From assembly GCF_024298765.1 (NCBI RefSeq), contig NZ_CP101210.1: a DNA stretch of 64,000 nt; one strand, 5' to 3'. Position numbers: made by a program. The stretch is from Escherichia coli. GTDB taxonomy: Bacteria; Pseudomonadota; Gammaproteobacteria; Enterobacterales; Enterobacteriaceae. The stretch's first letter is position 1; every line of letters starts with the position of its first letter. Shown here piece after piece: positions 18,001-27,000 of this stretch.

Positions 18001-21000
18001 GTCTGTGGGGAAATATTGCCAGTGGTGACCACAGCACAGGCTCGGGGCTCACCTGGTTCGGTAAAACCGGAAAAACAGATGCGCTCCTTTCTGTCATTAT
18101 GCGTAAAAGAGGTAATATCTATCAAAGTGATGGTGAGCGCGCACCTAACAAGGAAAAACCTGCAGCCCTGTTTGCGAAAGGCTCTGTCGGTATAACAGAC
18201 AGTAACAAAGCAGGTGCCAGCTTGCGTCTCTACCGGAATAACACCACTGAACCGGGCAATCCCACTCAGACACATGGTGACAGCGGCCTGCGTGACAGAA
18301 AAACAGTACAAAATGACGTACAGTTCTGGTACCAGTACGCTCCTGTGGATAACAGCCTCATCAATGTAAAGTCAACGTTATATCTCAGTGATATCACTAT
18401 CAAGACAAACGGTCACAACAAAACGGCAGAATGGAGAAACAACAGAACCTCCGGTGTTAATGTTGTCAACAGGAGTCATACTCTGATTTTTCCGGGAGCC
18501 CATCAGTTAAGTTATGGCGCTGAATATTACCGTCAGCAGCAGAAGCCAGAAGGCTCTGCCACACTATATCCGGAAGGAAATATTGACTTTACATCGTTGT
18601 ATTTCCAGGATGAAATGACAATGAAAAGCTACCCTGTTAACATTATCGTCGGTTCCCGCTATGACCGGTACAAGAGCTTCAATCCCCGTGCCGGAGAACT
18701 GAAAGCCGAACGCCTGTCCCCAAGGGCGGCGATTTCAGTCTCACCGACAGACTGGCTGATGATGTACGGCTCCATATCCTCTGCATTCCGAGCGCCCACA
18801 ATGGCAGAAATGTACAGGGATGATGTACATTTTTACCGCAAGGGTAAACCCAATTACTGGGTTCCTAACCTTAATCTGAAACCAGAAAATAACATCACCC
18901 GTGAGATTGGCGCAGGTATTCAACTGGATGGCCTGCTTACAGACAATGACCGGCTGCAGTTAAAAGGCGGATATTTCGGAACGGATGCCAGAAACTATAT
19001 TGCCACACGCGTGGATATGAAACGGATGCGTTCTTATTCTTATAATGTATCCCGGGCCCGTATCTGGGGATGGGATATGCAGGGAAATTACCAGTCTGAT
19101 TATGTTGACTGGGTGCTTTCTTATAACCGGACGGAAAGTATGGATGCCAGCAGCAGGGAATGGCTGGGCTCCGGCAATCCTGACACACTTATCAGTGACA
19201 TCAGCATACCTGTTGGTCATAGAGGCGTTTATGCCGGATGGCGTGCTGAACTTTCAGCATCAGCCACGCATGTGAAAAAAGGCGACTCCTATCAGGCTGG
19301 CTATGCCATACATTCCTTTTCACTGTCTTATAAGCCTGTAAGTGTTAAAGGCTTTGAGGCGTCAGTAACTCTGGATAATGCCTTCAACAAGCTTGCCATG
19401 AATGGCAAAGGTGTGCCGCTTTCAGGCCGAACTGTCAGTCTTTATACCCGTTATCAGTGGTAACCTCTCAGGAAATAAATCATGATGAAAAATACAGGCT
19501 ATATCTTAGCTCTTTGTCTGACAGCATCGGGGCATGTCCTGGCCCATGATGTCTGGATTACCGGCAAACAGGCAGAGAACAACGTTATCGCAGAGATTGG
19601 TTATGGTCATAATTTCCCCTCAAAGGGCACGATTCCTGACAGAAGGGATTTCTTTGAAACTCCCCGGCTTTATAACGGGAAAGAGACAATAACGCTGAAG
19701 CCAACATCCACGGATTATGTCTATAAAATTGAGTCTGCAGGCAACGGTAATAGCTACGTTCTGTCAACGAAAATGAAACCGGGATACTGGTCGAGAACCT
19801 CGTCAGGATGGAAGCCTGTCAGCCGGGAGGGCAGAAATGATGTGGCATACTGTGAGTTTGTGACTAAATATGCAAAATCTTTTATTCCTGGTGAACAGCA
19901 GATGCCAGCACAACTCTATCAGTATCCAATAGGGGATGAGCTTGAAATCATTCCGTTATCCGATATCAGTCGTTTCGGTGAAGATGTGAAGCTGAAAGTT
20001 CTGTATAAAACTTCCCCGCTTGCCGGAGCCACTCTGGAGCTTGACTCTGTCAGTTATCTGAAATCATCCCGCCATACTCATGCGGCAGAGCATAAACATT
20101 CGGCTCATAAAGCAGAACTTACCTTTGTAAGTAATGAGGACGGTATCATCACTGTACCCTCCCTTCATGTCGGGCAATGGCTAGCTAAAGTCAAAAATAA
20201 GAAAGTATTTCAGGACAAAAACCTGTGTGATGAAACTGTCGATGTGGCAACCTTAAGCTTCTCCCGAAATTAATAATACTATTCCTGCCCTGTAATTTAC
20301 GGGCAGGGTATATCAACCGGAAATAGCCTACTGACATCCATGTATAAAGCCACATAATTATTTTGTTGATGTATCTTACCTAATACGTAAGCGTAAAGCC
20401 AATGCCGTCTGTAACTCCTGATCCTTGCAGACTAAATGTAAGCGCTCCTTCTGTGCCGTCTTGTGGTGGTTGTCCTGTCTGGCAACAATCGCGTCCATCT
20501 ATTGATGGACACGAATGATGAATTCTCAGACAACAAAAGATATGTAAGCGGCTCGTCAGAACCGTATTGATATTTACTGAGAGCTCAGATCAACTTTCCA
20601 GGGCAACAGATCGCGTACCCGGTTTGCCGGCCAGTCCTGGATATGTTCAATGACGTAACGCAGCCACTTTTCTGGCTCCACATTGTTCAGACGGCATGTG
20701 CCGATCAGCGAGTACAACACCGCCGCATGTTCACCACCGCTGTCGGAACCCGCGAACATCCAGTTTTTCCGGCCTACGGCCACTCCCCGTAAGGCGTTCT
20801 CTGCGATGTTGTTGTCGATTTCCACCCAGCCATTACTGCAGTACACGTTCAGTGCATCCCACTGTTTCAGCAGGTATGCGAACGCTTTTGCCGTATCTGA
20901 GTGACGCGACAGTGTTTTCATCTGTTGCTGTATCCAGTCATACAGTGACTGCATCAGTGGCGCGGCTCTGGCTTTTCTTGCCGCCAGACGCTGTTCTGCT

Positions 21001-24000: not shown

Positions 24001-27000
24001 GCTTCAACGGCCTGGCTGCGAAAGTACAGACGGCGCTGAAAGACGATCCCATATCCGGCCATGTTTTCATTTTCCGGGGCCGCAGCGGCAGTCAGGTTAA
24101 ACTGCTGTGGTCCACCGGTGACGGGCTGTGCCTCCTGACCAAGCGGCTGGAGCGTGGGCGCTTCGCCTGGCCGTCAGCCCGTGATGGCAAAGTGTTCCTT
24201 ACGCAGGCGCAGCTGGCGATGCTGCTGGAAGGTATCGACTGGCGACAGCCTAAGCGGCTGCTGACCTCCCTGACCATGCTGTAAATCTCTTTATCCTGGT
24301 TGTCACAGAATAAGCCCGGTAAAATACGGGCTTATGAACGACATCTCTTGTAAGCGTCAACGGAGCACCGTATTGACGCTTATTTATTGGTGAGTACTAC
24401 GTTCCATGGCAGGAGTTCGTCAACACAGTTGGAGGGCCATTCCGGCAGTACGCTCAGAATATGGCGCAGATACGCTTCCGGATCGATACCGTTCAGACGG
24501 CAGGTGCCGATCAGCCCGTACAGCAGTGCTCCACGCTCGCCGCCGTGATCGCTACCGAAGAACACGTAATTTTTCTTTCCGAGACAGACTGCACGAAGCG
24601 CTCTTTCCGCTGTGTTATTGTCCGCTTCTGCCAAACCATCATCACTGTAATAACAGAGGGCGTCCCACTGATTCAGTACATAGCTGAACGCTTCGCCCAG
24701 TCTGGATTTTTTCGACAGCGTGCCATTCTTCTCCACCATCCATTCATGCAGCGACGTCAGTAACGCTTTGCTTCGCTGCTGCCTGGCTGCAAGACGCTCT
24801 GACTCTGGTAATCCCCGTATTTCATCCTCGATGGCGTACAGTTCACTGATTCGCTTCAGGGCTTCTTCTGCCGTCGCACTTTTGCTGCTGATGTATACAT
24901 CGTGGATTTTTCGCCGGGCATGGGCCCAGCACGCAACTTCTGTCAGTGCACCACCTTCACGTTCTGCACTGAACAACCTGTCGTAACCTGTGAACGCATC
25001 CGCCTGCAGGATACCCCGGAAGGGGCGAAGGTGTTGCTCCGGGTGTTTCCCCTGCCGGTTCGGCGAGTACGCGAACCAGACCGCTGGAGGAGATGACGAA
25101 CCCACATTGCGATCATCCCGGACATACGTCCAGATACGCCCTGTTTTCGCCTTTTTCTGACCCGGTGCCAGTACCTTTACCGGTGTGTCATCAGTGTGAA
25201 CCTTGCGGGTATTCATTACATAACGGTACAGGGCATCATTCACCGGTGTCATTAACTGGCAGCACGCGTCAACCCAGTTGGAGAGTAAGGCCCGGCTCAG
25301 TTCGACACCCTGGCGGGCAAAGATTTCACTCTGACGATACAGTGGCAGATGTTCGCAGTATTTTCCCGTTAACACGCGGGCAAGTAATCCGGGGCCCGCG
25401 ATACCACGCTCTATCGGGCGGGACGGCGCCGGTGCTTCAACAATACAGTCACATTTTGTACAGGCTTTTTTTACCCGTTCTGTGCGGATCACTTTCAGGG
25501 CACTGCTCACCAGTTCCAGCTGTTCAGCGCTGACTTCCCCCAGATAATCCAGCTCACCGCCACACTCCGGGCAACAGCTTTCTTCTGGCTCCAGGCGGTG
25601 TATTTCACGGGGAAGGTGTGCCGGTAACGGACGACGATGGCGCGACTGTCGCAACTGGCGGGGAACCTGAGGATCGTCTTCCCGCCCACTGTAACGATCG
25701 CTGTCCTGTTCACGTTGTTTCAGCAGAGCCTCAGCCAGTTCAACTTCACGACGCAGTTTTTCAGAACGGGTACCGAACAGCATCCGGTGCAGTTTTTCTA
25801 TCTGAGCCCGCAGATGTTCTATTTCCCGTTCATCTTCTTCGATCTTTTCTTCGGCACGTGCCAGTGCAGAGCGCAGGAAGGCCTCCGTCTCTTCAACCAG
25901 ACTCAGTTGCTGGTCTTTCTGACGGAGCTGGCTTTCCAGTTCTGCAATGCGAATGAGGTATTTCTGACTCATGGCCGTTTTTATAATGCGGCCAGGCGTT
26001 TTTTACAACATTGTCAGTGCGTTAAGGCGGAATGTTTTTGGCTGACGCCAGTCCAGCTTATCGAGGAGCATTGCCAGTTGCGAGCGGGTAATGGATACCT
26101 TGCCGTCACGTACCGCAGGCCAGATAAACTGGCCTTCCTCCAGGCGTTTGGTGAACAGGCACAGACCATCAGCATCAGCCCAAAGAATTTTAACGGTGTC
26201 ACCCCGTCGGCCACGGAAGATAAACAGGTGACCGGAGAAGGGATTATCATTCAGCACATGTTGTACCTGTTCTCCCAGTCCGTTGAAGGATTTACGCATA
26301 TCGGTAACGCCGGCAACGAGCCAGATACGGGTACCTGATGGGAGTGAGATCATCTTCCCCTCCCGGTCAGTTCACGGATCAACACCGTGAGCAGCTCTGG
26401 CGATGGATTTTCCAGCGTCATGTTACCGTGACGGAATTCCACCTTGCAGGAACTGGCACTGACTCTGGTCTGAGTGGAAGTGGATAAAGACGGCGCAATG
26501 GCCGCCACAGGTTCTTTCTGCTCATCCGGCGTTATTTCTACAGGTAATAATTCAACGCCAGTGTCAGAAGAGGTCGTTACCGGAAGACGCCGCGAAACAC
26601 GCCCTTCGTTCTGCCAGAGCCTGAGCCATTTGAAAATAACATTATCATTGACGCCATTTTCACGTGCAATCTGTGCAACACAAGCTCCAGGTTGTGATGC
26701 CAGTTCCACCATACGAAGTTTGAATTCATTCGAATAGTTTTTACGAGGTTCTTTTCGCCAGTCCTGTAATTCCATACTTAGATGTCCGTCTATATCAGAT
26801 GGGCGTCTAAGTTACCAATTCTCGTCTGATGGCTACATACGGCGGTCAGTTTACGCTTACCTTTATCCCGACAGACGACGTATATTTACCAGTAAGGCCA
26901 ACCCGGTTGCGCCCTTTGAACCAGAAGTCAAACGTCAGGCTGTCATGGCACTCTGTACACGACAAGTATCAGCCAGTGAAATCGCCAGGCGTATTGGTGT

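What the first reader, a model, noticed from the sequence alone, without database searches (positions are those of the whole stretch)
20380..26860. Nest of three IS66-family copies with stacked ends, a truncated copy and head-to-head HTH fragments
Copy 3 (24350..26860) appears complete. Copy 2 (23395..24349) ends right after tnpB and abuts copy 3 in inverted orientation. Copy 1 (20544..~23250) has an orf1 that is 225 aa instead of ~135 aa because an extra N-terminal IS21 IstA-like HTH is fused in frame. A homologous HTH fragment lies head-to-head on the opposite strand at 23221..23398, with a short palindrome (tgtccattaaaaatgatggaca) between them. Additional gtaagcg end remnants lie at 20389 and 20438. 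This is either a hotspot of repeated IS66 insertion into an older element or an IS66 variant with an extended orf1.
Basis: seen in the sequence. Interest (0 to 1): 0.4.

Follow-up and report, generated by a model that had tools for sequence, protein, structure and literature searches.

The report
IS66 nest and ISCro1 insertion hotspot
This stretch of an E. coli genomic island is a pile-up of six known IS66-family jumping genes, ordinary in its parts, but comparison with other strains shows that one of them, ISCro1, has landed in this same small patch at least twelve separate times.

Summary
The nest is real but holds six IS66-family elements, not three. There are eight IS66-type termini in 20387-26860, against 0.01 expected by chance.

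The order is:
- a 51-bp end of an ISEc43-like element
- the first 247 bp of a long-TnpA element ("Z")
- a complete ISCro1 (20544-23242, 2699 bp) inserted into Z, with 8-bp duplication AAAGATAT
- a 73-bp end of an ISEc23/43-like element
- ISEc8 positions 1-882
- a complete ISEc23 variant (24350-26860)

The "chimeric" 225-aa orf1 is the normal ISCro1 TnpA. It matches the curated NCBIfam model NF038385. Its N-terminus is indeed IS21 IstA-like, but this is a trait of the family, not a fusion made here.

The head-to-head HTH fragment is Z's own tnpA 5' end, split by ISCro1. An exact empty site exists in strain CH4793.

Unexpectedly, other complete E. coli genomes carry ISCro1 at 11 other positions in or beside this nest. 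Each has its own duplication and all have the same orientation. Most lie 45-190 bp inside tnpA-proximal IS66 ends.

The parts are already known. The hotspot is the interesting feature.

The parts
20387..20437 (+). W: orphan tnpA-proximal terminus (first 51 bp) of an ISEc43-like IS66 element. It forms the left edge of the nest.
   Evidence: 49/51 identical to the start of the ISEc43-family element at L006:3001. Matches the terminus motif.
20438..20543 (+). Z, left part (positions 1-106) of a long-TnpA IS66 element. It holds the terminal IR from 20438, the palindrome GTCCATCTATTGATGGAC at 20493-20510, and the tnpA start ATG at 20515.
   Evidence: 95% identical to positions 1-106 of the intact 2710-bp element L003:3501-6210. 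Contiguous with 23251-23394 in the empty site L002:7001-7392.
20536..20543 (.). Left copy of the 8-bp target-site duplication AAAGATAT made by ISCro1. The right copy is at 23243-23250.
   Evidence: Identical octamers flank the element. A single copy is present in the empty site of strain CH4793.
20544..23242 (-). Complete ISCro1 (2699 bp). tnpC is 20574-22145, tnpB is 22165-22512 and tnpA is 22512-23189. The probable true tnpA start is the ATG at 23159, giving 215 aa. Imperfect IRs: GTAAGCGGCTCG... and GTAACCGGCTCA...
   Evidence: Copies in other contexts match exactly these coordinates. Pfam and NCBIfam domains. TSD and empty site. PGAP names the tnpC product 'ISCro1 family transposase'.
23167..23188 (.). 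Palindrome TGTCCAT-N8-ATGGACA. It lies inside ISCro1, just upstream of the probable tnpA start. The right arm carries the likely Shine-Dalgarno GGA.
   Evidence: Position. A comparable GTCC(AT)...(AT)GGAC palindrome sits in the same place in Z, L003, L004 and the L007/L029 element. Hairpins are predicted, but their stability is not decisive.
23243..23394 (+). Z, right part (positions 99-247; the first 8 bp are the TSD copy). It encodes the IstA-like HTH of Z's TnpA and is cut off at 23394.
   Evidence: 88% identical to L003 positions 99-247. PGAP calls it an 'HTH domain-containing protein, missing C-terminus'. 44% aa identity to the ISCro1 TnpA N-terminus.
23395..23467 (+). Y: orphan 73-bp tnpC-proximal terminus of an ISEc23/ISEc43-like element.
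   Evidence: 88% identical to 24350-24422 (family D3). 87.7% to the last 73 bp of ISEc23v and 86.3% to those of the ISEc43-like element.
23468..24349 (+). ISEc8 fragment, positions 1-882. It holds the IR, tnpA (23560-23940), tnpB (23937-24284) and the first 16 nt of tnpC (24334-24349).
   Evidence: Other ISEc8 copies match query 89-970, which equals these coordinates. 98.8% identical to positions 1-882 of the full 2442-bp ISEc8 in L005.
24350..26860 (-). Complete ISEc23 variant (2511 bp). tnpC is 24380-25972, tnpB is 26003-26353 and tnpA is 26350-26775 (141 aa, short form). It has no target duplication: CATCTCTT on one side, CTTTATCC on the other.
   Evidence: Copies elsewhere match exactly these coordinates, at up to 99.8%. 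Identity is 97.5% to copies whose tnpC product PGAP names ISEc23. Domains. Flanks read.

Best explanation
The locus is an IS66-family graveyard in an E. coli genomic island, next to a TonB-dependent receptor gene and a DUF4198 gene. It was built by successive insertions of one IS66 relative into the end region of another, plus two truncations.

Layers, from outside in:
- An ISEc43-like end (W).
- Z, a long-TnpA element that entered 51 bp inside W. Z is now cut at position 247, where it meets the end of an ISEc23/43-like element (Y).
- ISEc8, which entered 73 bp inside Y. ISEc8 is cut at position 882, exactly at the tnpC-side end of an intact ISEc23 variant. That variant has no target duplication, so a deletion or recombination event is inferred there.

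The last event was a simple transposition of an intact ISCro1, in inverted orientation, into codons 8-10 of Z's tnpA. It duplicated AAAGATAT. This alone produces the "head-to-head HTH fragments". One HTH is ISCro1's own TnpA N-terminus. The other is Z's, 44% identical.

The long TnpA is the normal product of a sub-lineage of IS66. It has an IstA-type N-terminal HTH, then the usual HTH_Tnp_1 module, then a C-terminal tail. The palindrome is a conserved feature just upstream of tnpA in that sub-lineage. I infer it is either an RBS-masking hairpin or a TnpA operator.

The patch is also a true ISCro1 hotspot. Different strains carry ISCro1 at 12 different positions here, all in one orientation. 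The positions are concentrated 45-190 bp inside the tnpA-proximal ends of Z and ISEc8.

I infer, but have not shown, that proteins bound at orphan IS66 ends (TnpC on the IR and/or TnpA on subterminal sites) tether the incoming transpososome. I also infer that the direction of replication, acting through the reported beta-clamp motifs of IS66 TnpB and TnpC, sets the orientation.
For: Anatomy:
- BLAST tiling against reference copies.
- Boundaries taken from multi-copy matches.
- Eight termini observed against 0.01 expected.

ISCro1 as a simple insertion:
- 8-bp TSD, and the flanks joined with one TSD copy match the empty site of strain CH4793 at 392/392 bases.
- 130 records hold the uninterrupted 250-bp Z remnant at 99% identity or more.

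Long TnpA is canonical:
- NF038385 at 296 bits, covering residues 13-206.
- TnpA of 225, 224 and 216 aa in three other lineages.

IstA-like N-terminus:
- 628 library hits. Those that are long enough score as IS21-family transposase (NF033546), for example P0064 at 166 bits.
- Shared motif LRL.F...LG.S.STV...RF..AGLSWPLP.GMS.

Hotspot:
- No genome among 5426 has the window's junction.
- 11 other ISCro1 positions were mapped. Ten have perfect 8-bp TSDs, one (GPEC60-33-648) has a 7-bp duplication, and all share one orientation.
- 6 of the 10 in-nest sites lie in the 250 bp of Z (binomial P 1.4e-5). None of the 10 lies in the 2511-bp ISEc23 variant (P 1.7e-5).

Same tendency in other contexts:
- STEC N5D43: offsets 47, 92 and 28.
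- Escherichia sp. MOD1-EC7003: 28 ISCro1 flanks, with offsets 91, 105, 110 and 44. That is 4 of the 6 intra-IS66 hits within 110 bp of an end, P 7e-4.
- ISEc8 site 98-105, TSD GAAAAATG, was used independently in both orientations.

Beta-clamp motifs and a weak orientation bias of IS66 are reported in PMC3971601.
Against: - The order of the older events and the origin of the two truncations cannot be reconstructed. No TSDs or empty sites exist for them.
- The intact ISEc23 variant's own tnpA-proximal end received none of the ISCro1 insertions. One insertion lies in the DUF4198 gene and one inside an IS2-like element. A regional effect may therefore contribute, rather than an effect of IS66 ends alone.
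- Orientation relative to the target element is not constant between genomes. It is inverted here and in N5D43, but direct in three MOD1-EC7003 cases.
- Most ISCro1 copies elsewhere are in ordinary genes. All 37 distinct prophage flanks are outside IS66 elements.
- The palindrome arms hardly vary, so there is no covariation to separate a hairpin from an operator. The folding z-scores range from 0 to -4.
- Events were partly noticed rather than systematically sampled.
Confidence: 0.88

Rival explanations
1. The 225-aa orf1 is a unique chimera made at this locus. On this view, an IS21 istA 5' end was fused in frame to an IS66 orf1, and the opposite-strand HTH is the other product of the same rearrangement.
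For: The N-terminal 80 residues do resemble IstA N-termini. Two homologous HTH segments do face each other.
Against: - The same 2699-bp element with the same ORF occurs in 1850 records from 1308 genomes.
- The protein matches a curated 190-position family model end to end.
- Three other IS66 lineages have the same architecture.
- The opposite-strand HTH lies outside ISCro1's terminal repeat. It is continuous with 20438-20543 in an exact empty site.
Confidence: 0.02
2. The clustering of ISCro1 insertions reflects only permissive, selectively neutral DNA together with a regional property such as local topology, transcription or replication. IS66 ends are not recognised.
For: - One insertion lies in the DUF4198 gene and one in an IS2-like element within the nest.
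- Orientation is uniform across all 12 sites, including those two. This suggests a regional determinant.
- Other ISs (IS2-like, ISEc8, ISKpn26) have also landed in the nest.
Against: - Within equally neutral nest DNA the distribution is very uneven: 6 of 10 sites in the 250 bp of Z and none in the 2511-bp ISEc23 variant.
- The same offsets of about 45-110 bp recur in unrelated loci and genomes.
- The identical ISEc8 site 98-105 was used in two genomes in opposite orientations.
Confidence: 0.25
3. All the positions derive from one ancestral ISCro1 insertion that later hopped locally within the nest.
For: All copies have the same orientation and lie within about 1.3 kb, apart from one about 0.6 kb outside.
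Against: - Each strain has a single ISCro1 in the nest with a clean duplication (8 bp; 7 bp in GPEC60-33-648), and the other sites are unscarred. Precise restoration of the donor site would be needed every time.
- The window's copy is a distinct sequence variant. It is 98.0-98.8% identical to the others, and its end reads GTAAGCGG rather than GTAAGCGA.
- Many island-bearing genomes have no ISCro1 here.
Confidence: 0.07
4. The nest is an assembly collapse or mis-join of dispersed IS66 copies.
For: Repeats of this kind commonly break or mislead short-read assemblies.
Against: - The backbone W-Z-Y-ISEc8-ISEc23v is identical in many complete genomes from different laboratories.
- The elements differ by 10-30% in sequence, so they would not collapse onto one another.
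Confidence: 0.01

Closest known systems
ISCro1 (IS66 family; first named in Citrobacter rodentium ICC168, where it has 24 copies, PMC3072379)
   Same: The element at 20544-23242 has the gene order, domains, ends and 8-bp duplication of IS66 elements. It is 98-99% identical to copies whose tnpC product PGAP names 'ISCro1 family transposase'. It is intact and evidently active in E. coli lineages.
   Different: Nothing structural. The length found here is 2699 bp, whereas one paper gives 2,824 bp (PMC8764528). The ISfinder reference could not be consulted.
IS679 and the general IS66-family model (Han et al. 2001, J Bacteriol 183:4296; cited from my own knowledge because the paper was not retrievable)
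   Same: Three genes, tnpA, tnpB and tnpC. The tnpB start overlaps the tnpA stop (TGATG at 22512). tnpC begins about 20 bp downstream. The IRs start GTAAGCG. The target duplication is 8 bp (also in PMC3281130).
   Different: That work did not, to my knowledge, describe a preference for inserting into the ends of other IS66 elements. I also do not recall it describing the IstA-like N-terminal module of long TnpA.
IS21-family transposase IstA, N-terminal HTH
   Same: Residues about 17-80 of ISCro1 TnpA align with IstA N-termini at 37-40% identity (34% to the fragment P0134) and share the AGLSWPLP.GMS motif.
   Different: TnpA has no DDE/rve catalytic domain and gives no IS21 model hit. No IstB-like ATPase gene is present. 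Only the DNA-binding module is shared.
Tn5053/Tn402-family 'res-site hunters' (Minakhina et al. 1999, own knowledge), and IR-targeted insertion by IS30 and IS911 (own knowledge)
   Same: Many independent insertions fall at slightly different positions around one kind of protein-binding site. Here they are all in one orientation. In this case an element targets the ends of its own relatives.
   Different: Dependence on a site-bound protein is untested. The insertions lie 45-190 bp inside the end rather than abutting it. Orientation is uniform only within this island, not across genomes.

Membership tests
IS66 family (applied to 20544-23242 and 24350-26860) | Gene order tnpA-tnpB-tnpC, with the tnpB start overlapping the tnpA stop and tnpC about 20-30 bp downstream | tested here: met
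   ISCro1: tnpA ends and tnpB starts at 22512, and the tnpB-tnpC gap is 19 bp. ISEc23 variant: tnpA and tnpB overlap at 26350-26353, and the gap is 30 bp.
IS66 family | TnpC is a DDE transposase of the IS66 type with leucine-zipper, zinc-finger and C-terminal modules. TnpB is of the IS66 Orf2 type. | tested here: met
   PF03050 (E 8e-104 and 2e-97), PF13007, PF13005 and PF13817 in both TnpC proteins. PF05717 in the ISCro1 TnpB, E 3e-40. NF033517 at 476 and 452 bits.
IS66 family | Imperfect terminal inverted repeats beginning GTAAGCG | tested here: met
   Eight termini match GTAASCG-N11-YYGTMT, against 0.01 expected. The ISCro1 IRs match at 19 of their first 26 positions.
IS66 family | 8-bp target-site duplication | tested here: met
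   ISCro1 has AAAGATAT on both sides, plus an exact empty site. Ten further ISCro1 insertions have perfect 8-bp TSDs and one has 7 bp. The ISEc23 variant has none, which is consistent with later rearrangement.
ISCro1 (named element) | Near-identity to the ISfinder reference sequence over its full length | not testable with these tools
   ISfinder was not available. Proxy evidence: 1850 E. coli records hold copies with the same ends at about 98-99% identity, and PGAP names the tnpC product 'ISCro1 family transposase'.
NCBIfam NF038385 (long IS66-like accessory protein TnpA) | Whole-protein score above the curated cut-off, with the full-length model covered | tested here: met
   296.3 bits against a cut-off of 150. 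Residues 13-206 align to model positions 1-189 of 190. The short TnpAs of ISEc8 and the ISEc23 variant cover only model positions 73-189 and stay below the cut-off.
IS21 family (IstA/IstB) | IstA with N-terminal HTH plus DDE catalytic core, and an adjacent IstB AAA+ ATPase gene | tested here: not met
   Only the N-terminal HTH is shared. TnpA gives no NF033546 or rve hit. There is no IstB-like ORF in the element. It is not a member; it shares one module.
Site-hunter type target selection (works-like comparison with Tn5053/Tn402) | Independent insertions clustered around one kind of site | tested here: met
   12 distinct ISCro1 sites in or beside the nest. 8 of them lie 45-190 bp inside the tnpA-proximal ends of Z or ISEc8. 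Similar offsets occur in other genomes.
Site-hunter type target selection | Fixed orientation relative to the target site | tested here: inconclusive
   12 of 12 share one orientation in this island (two-sided P 5e-4). Three MOD1-EC7003 insertions into IS66 ends have the opposite orientation relative to the target.
Site-hunter type target selection | Dependence on a protein bound at the target site | not testable with these tools
   This needs transposition assays and DNA-binding experiments.

The most novel reading that the evidence does not exclude
ISCro1, and perhaps IS66-family elements in general, may be "IS66-end hunters".

On this reading, the transpososome is recruited to the subterminal, tnpA-proximal 45-190 bp of resident IS66-family elements. 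The recruiting factor would be IS66 proteins bound there. One candidate is the long TnpA, whose IstA-like HTH might recognise the conserved GTCCAT...ATGGAC palindrome. The direction of replication would then set the orientation.

If so, the stacked ends and IS66 nests common in E. coli islands and plasmids would be products of a targeting mechanism rather than of chance accumulation. The unknown roles of TnpA and TnpB would gain a concrete assay.
Probability: 0.3. Interest if true: 0.55.

Novelty: already known. Interest (0 to 1): 0.33.

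Why it matters
The sequence features themselves are known insertion sequences, already annotated in public E. coli genomes. The long orf1 needs no special explanation.

What could matter is how ISCro1 behaves here. This roughly 1.3-kb patch has been hit by ISCro1 at least 12 independent times, always in the same orientation. IS66 relatives are repeatedly found inserted 20-130 bp inside each other's ends in unrelated genomes.

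Target choice in the IS66 family is essentially unstudied, and so are the roles of its two accessory proteins. A 250-bp DNA fragment that attracts ISCro1 would be a simple experimental handle on both questions.

There is also a practical point. Such nests are sites of rapid structural polymorphism in virulence islands and plasmids, and they are a trap for assembly and annotation. Two examples seen here are the over-long start codon annotated for ISCro1 tnpA and the "HTH domain protein" pseudogene.

Tried and rejected
- A PDB sequence search with the TnpA N-terminus found nothing useful; the best hit had E 1.3 and was unrelated.
- Pfam alone does not detect the N-terminal module.
- Han et al. 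2001 could not be retrieved.
- Full-text searches found no paper on IS66 self-targeting or on the IstA-like module. Absence from the held library does not prove the point is unpublished.
- RNA folding of the four palindromes predicts hairpins. The z-scores are -1.4, -4.1, -2.2 and 0.0, so they cannot separate a hairpin from an operator.
- BLAST hits that seemed to extend from ISCro1 into Z-like flanks (H187, H188) were ordinary insertions with chance flank similarity.
- Z-like fragments truncated at positions 181 and 116 (L039, L040) end in unrelated DNA, not in IS66 termini.
- Strain E06 has a full-length ISEc8 at this locus, but its far side is different DNA, so it does not reveal the ancestral state.
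- I asked whether 20387-26860 could be one composite unit bounded by inverted IS66 ends. There is no flanking duplication (CCTAATAC on one side, CTTTATCC on the other), so I rejected this.
- A scan of prophage contigs gave 37 distinct ISCro1 flanks, none inside IS66 elements. This shows ISCro1 is not restricted to such targets, but it says little about preference because IS66 targets are probably rare there.

Full report
**What is in the sequence**

The interval 20387-26860 holds eight IS66-type termini matching GTAASCG-N11-YYGTMT. The rest of the 64-kb window holds none, and shuffles predict 0.01. A tblastn with the three ISCro1 proteins finds TnpB and TnpC homologues only in this interval. 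Elsewhere in the window it finds only short, weak matches to the HTH_Tnp_1 part of TnpA, at about 2.3, 12.3 and 16.4 kb.

I tiled the interval against reference copies recovered from other genomes. That gives six pieces from six different elements:
- W, 20387-20437: the first 51 bp of an ISEc43-like element, 49/51 identical to L006:3001.
- Z, 20438-20543 plus 23243-23394: positions 1-106 and 99-247 of a long-TnpA element. Its intact relative is the 2710-bp element L003:3501-6210.
- ISCro1, 20544-23242: 2699 bp, complete.
- Y, 23395-23467: the last 73 bp of an ISEc23/43-like element, 88% identical to 24350-24422.
- ISEc8, 23468-24349: positions 1-882.
- An ISEc23 variant, 24350-26860: 2511 bp, complete.

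The boundaries do not depend on my reading of the repeats. Copies of ISCro1, ISEc8 and the ISEc23 variant in unrelated contexts match the window exactly from 20544 to 23242, from 23468 to 24349, and from 24350 to 26860.

Copy 3 was placed correctly and copy 1 nearly so. The end remnant given at 20389 starts at 20387. The nest holds six elements rather than three.

**ISCro1 is a simple, recent insertion**

The octamer AAAGATAT flanks the element on both sides. Removing ISCro1 and one octamer yields a 392-bp sequence that is identical, 392/392, to L002:7001-7392 in E. coli CH4793. That strain carries the same island without ISCro1. The uninterrupted 250-bp Z remnant is present at 99% identity or more in 130 records.

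The restored sequence reads as follows: a GTAAGCG terminus, about 55 bp, the palindrome GTCCATCTATTGATGGAC, then ATGATGAATTCTCAGACAACAAAAGATATCACC and onward. This encodes MMNSQTTKDITGFRSYFPDVLRLIFEEQLSVRAIALEQLGLSHSTVHNIFQRFNASG.

This is the start of Z's tnpA. The intact relatives on plasmid pPRO_A-1504-6M-A_1 and in O157:H7 SS52 encode TnpA of 225 and 224 aa from the same position. The "head-to-head HTH fragments" therefore have a plain explanation. ISCro1 landed in inverted orientation in codons 8-10 of the tnpA of a related element. Its own TnpA N-terminus now faces Z's, to which it is 44% identical.

**The 225-aa orf1 is not a local chimera**

- It scores 296 bits against NCBIfam NF038385, "IS66-like element accessory protein TnpA", whose cut-off is 150. 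Residues 13-206 cover model positions 1-189 of 190.
- The short TnpAs of ISEc8 and the ISEc23 variant cover only positions 73-189 of that model.
- The same ORF sits in ISCro1 copies in 1308 E. coli genomes.
- A fourth long-TnpA lineage, with a 216-aa TnpA, is present in APEC IMT5155 and in Escherichia sp. MOD1-EC7003.
- The true start is probably the ATG at 23159, reading MKHRTW and giving 215 aa. The family model begins at residue 13, and several representative homologues begin at that methionine.

An exhaustive search with residues 11-104 gave 628 hits. The longer ones score as IS21-family transposase; for example, P0064 scores 166 bits on NF033546. They share LRL.F...LG.S.STV...RF..AGLSWPLP.GMS with TnpA at 37-40% identity, or 34% for the fragment P0134. 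TnpA has no DDE core and the element has no istB partner, so only the DNA-binding module is shared.

**The palindrome**

TGTCCAT-N8-ATGGACA lies at 23167-23188, inside ISCro1. It sits between the annotated ATG and the probable true start. Comparable palindromes occupy the same place in the other long-TnpA elements:
- Z and L003: GTCCATC-TATT-GATGGAC
- L004: CCATCTATATAGATGG
- the L007/L029 element: ATGTCC-N15-GGACAT

In each case the right arm includes a GGA that could serve as the Shine-Dalgarno sequence. The variable spacer favours an RNA hairpin that masks the ribosome-binding site over a fixed-spacing operator. However, the arms barely vary and the folding energies are unremarkable. This point remains inference.

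**The older layers**

Z's terminus follows 51 bp of W, and ISEc8's terminus follows 73 bp of Y. Both pairs look like insertions close to the end of an earlier element. Z stops at position 247, exactly at Y's terminus. ISEc8 stops at position 882, which is codon 6 of its tnpC, exactly at the tnpC-side terminus of the ISEc23 variant. That variant lacks a target duplication.

Junctions of this kind are what IS-mediated adjacent deletion, or recombination between copies, would leave. Neither the order of these events nor their mechanism can be shown from the data.

**The unexpected part**

A 100-bp probe across the window's left ISCro1 junction has no intact match in any of 5426 complete E. coli genomes. 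Instead, strains carrying this island have ISCro1 at other places. I mapped each one by its flanks.

| Strain(s) | Site | Duplication |
|---|---|---|
| ABW_A19 | DUF4198 gene, equivalent to 19856-19863 | GTTTGTGA |
| 23CRST026 | Z 46-53 | CAACAATC |
| GPEC60-33-648 | Z 56-62, inside the palindrome | GTCCATC (7 bp) |
| the window | Z 99-106 | AAAGATAT |
| IMT5155 (DE17 and VTB96815v inferred from identical spans) | Z 101-108 | AGATATCA |
| XDL (BEN2908 inferred) | Z 122-129 | TTATTTTC |
| 64.1 (GPEC673 inferred) | Z 181-188 | CACTGGAG |
| E06 | ISEc8 78-85 | ACCAAAGT |
| TUM9754 | ISEc8 98-105 | GAAAAATG |
| ApSLC23 | ISEc8 286-293 | CTTCAGAG |
| Br_167_kylling | ISEc8 733-740 | TACGCAGG |
| AR_0085 | inside an IS2-like element that itself sits in Y | GGAGAACA |

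That makes 12 independent insertions of a 2699-bp ISCro1. Eleven have a perfect 8-bp duplication and one has a 7-bp duplication. All 12 share one orientation (two-sided P 5e-4).

Within the nest, where all the DNA should be equally dispensable, the sites are far from uniform. Six of the 10 in-nest sites fall in the 250 bp of Z (P 1.4e-5). None falls in the 2511-bp ISEc23 variant (P 1.7e-5).

**The tendency is not confined to this island**

- In STEC N5D43, next to espI, another nest shows an unidentified IS66 element 47 bp inside an ISEc8 end. ISCro1 lies 92 bp inside that element, with TSD AAATCATT. An ISEc23 end is stacked 28 bp inside another.
- In strain 13P477T, a Z-like element sits 54 bp inside another Z-like end.
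- In Escherichia sp. MOD1-EC7003, whose draft genome has at least 28 ISCro1 ends, six flanks lie in other IS66 elements. Four of these are within 110 bp of a terminus: ISEc8 at 91 and 105, the fourth long-TnpA lineage at 110, and an ISCro1-like tnpC end at 44. For 4 of 6, P is 7e-4.
- The ISEc8 site 98-105, with duplication GAAAAATG, was used in both TUM9754 and MOD1-EC7003, in opposite orientations. The two events must therefore be independent.

Over all 25 IS66-into-IS66 events I recorded, 17 lie within 130 bp of a terminus. About 10% would be expected if positions were uniform. These events were partly noticed rather than sampled, so that figure is indicative only.

**Limits**

ISCro1 is not restricted to such targets:
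- Most copies sampled from E. coli sit in ordinary genes.
- All 37 distinct flanks from prophage contigs are outside IS66 elements.
- The intact ISEc23 variant's own tnpA-proximal end attracted no insertion.
- Two of the 12 sites are in non-IS66 DNA.
- Orientation relative to the target differs between genomes.

A regional effect is therefore likely to act alongside any recognition of IS66 ends. A published analysis reports beta-clamp-binding peptides in IS66 TnpB and TnpC, and a weak orientation tendency for the family (PMC3971601). That offers a plausible, untested reason for the uniform orientation at one chromosomal locus.

My working model is that proteins bound at orphan IS66 ends tether the incoming transpososome. 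This is inference. It resembles the behaviour of Tn5053/Tn402 "res hunters" and the IR-targeting of IS30 and IS911, which I cite from memory.

**Verdict**

The elements and the long TnpA are already known, and public genomes already annotate them. Its one notable property is that it is a strongly polymorphic, oriented ISCro1 hotspot. I found no paper describing this, and it could be tested directly.

Noticed in passing
L010-L036 (Escherichia sp. MOD1-EC7003 contigs): This draft genome has at least 28 contig ends carrying the ISCro1 tnpA-side terminus, so ISCro1 has expanded greatly in one Escherichia lineage. I used it as an unselected sample of insertion flanks.
   Followed up: partly
L005:4007-11854 (E. 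coli N5D43, next to espI): A second, differently ordered nest contains ISEc8, ISCro1 and ISEc23, again with stacked termini. It includes a 28-bp ISEc23 end directly upstream of another ISEc23 end, which suggests an inversion after insertion.
   Followed up: partly
L038:4298-6739 and L050 (strains 64.1 and 23CRST026): These strains carry an extra full-length ISEc8 inserted in inverted orientation into the ISEc8 fragment, duplicating positions 822-829. The nest is still growing in some lineages.
   Followed up: partly
window 11111-12441: An IS2-like element of about 1331 bp. A copy about 95-96% identical has inserted into remnant Y in strain AR_0085, and that copy was then itself hit by ISCro1.
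   Followed up: partly
window 17493-20273: A TonB-dependent receptor gene and a DUF4198 gene lie directly left of the nest and look like the island's cargo. In strain ABW_A19, ISCro1 disrupts the DUF4198 gene.
   Followed up: no
window 23157-23189: The PGAP start codon of ISCro1 tnpA (225 aa) lies within the conserved palindrome and is probably 10 codons too far upstream. The family model and several homologues begin at MKHRTW, giving 215 aa.
   Followed up: partly
L008, L009, L037: Metagenome-assembled genomes labelled Segatella copri, Collinsella sp. and Lachnospiraceae contain short contigs with an exact ISCro1 terminus. These are most likely mis-binned enterobacterial DNA.
   Followed up: no
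window 26861-28403: Right of the nest lie a truncated IS3-family transposase gene and an IS91-family fragment, as annotated in the matching IMT5155 region. The IS debris therefore extends beyond the reported interval.
   Followed up: no
PMC8764528 versus window 20544-23242: A published description gives ISCro1 as 2,824 bp. The TSD, the empty site and the multi-copy boundaries here give 2,699 bp. I did not resolve the discrepancy.
   Followed up: no
L004:2672-3500 (E. coli O157:H7 SS52): A Z-like long-TnpA element is inserted in an ISEc8 copy at position 251 from its tnpA end. That ISEc8 copy also has an internal deletion (positions 383 to 1783).
   Followed up: partly
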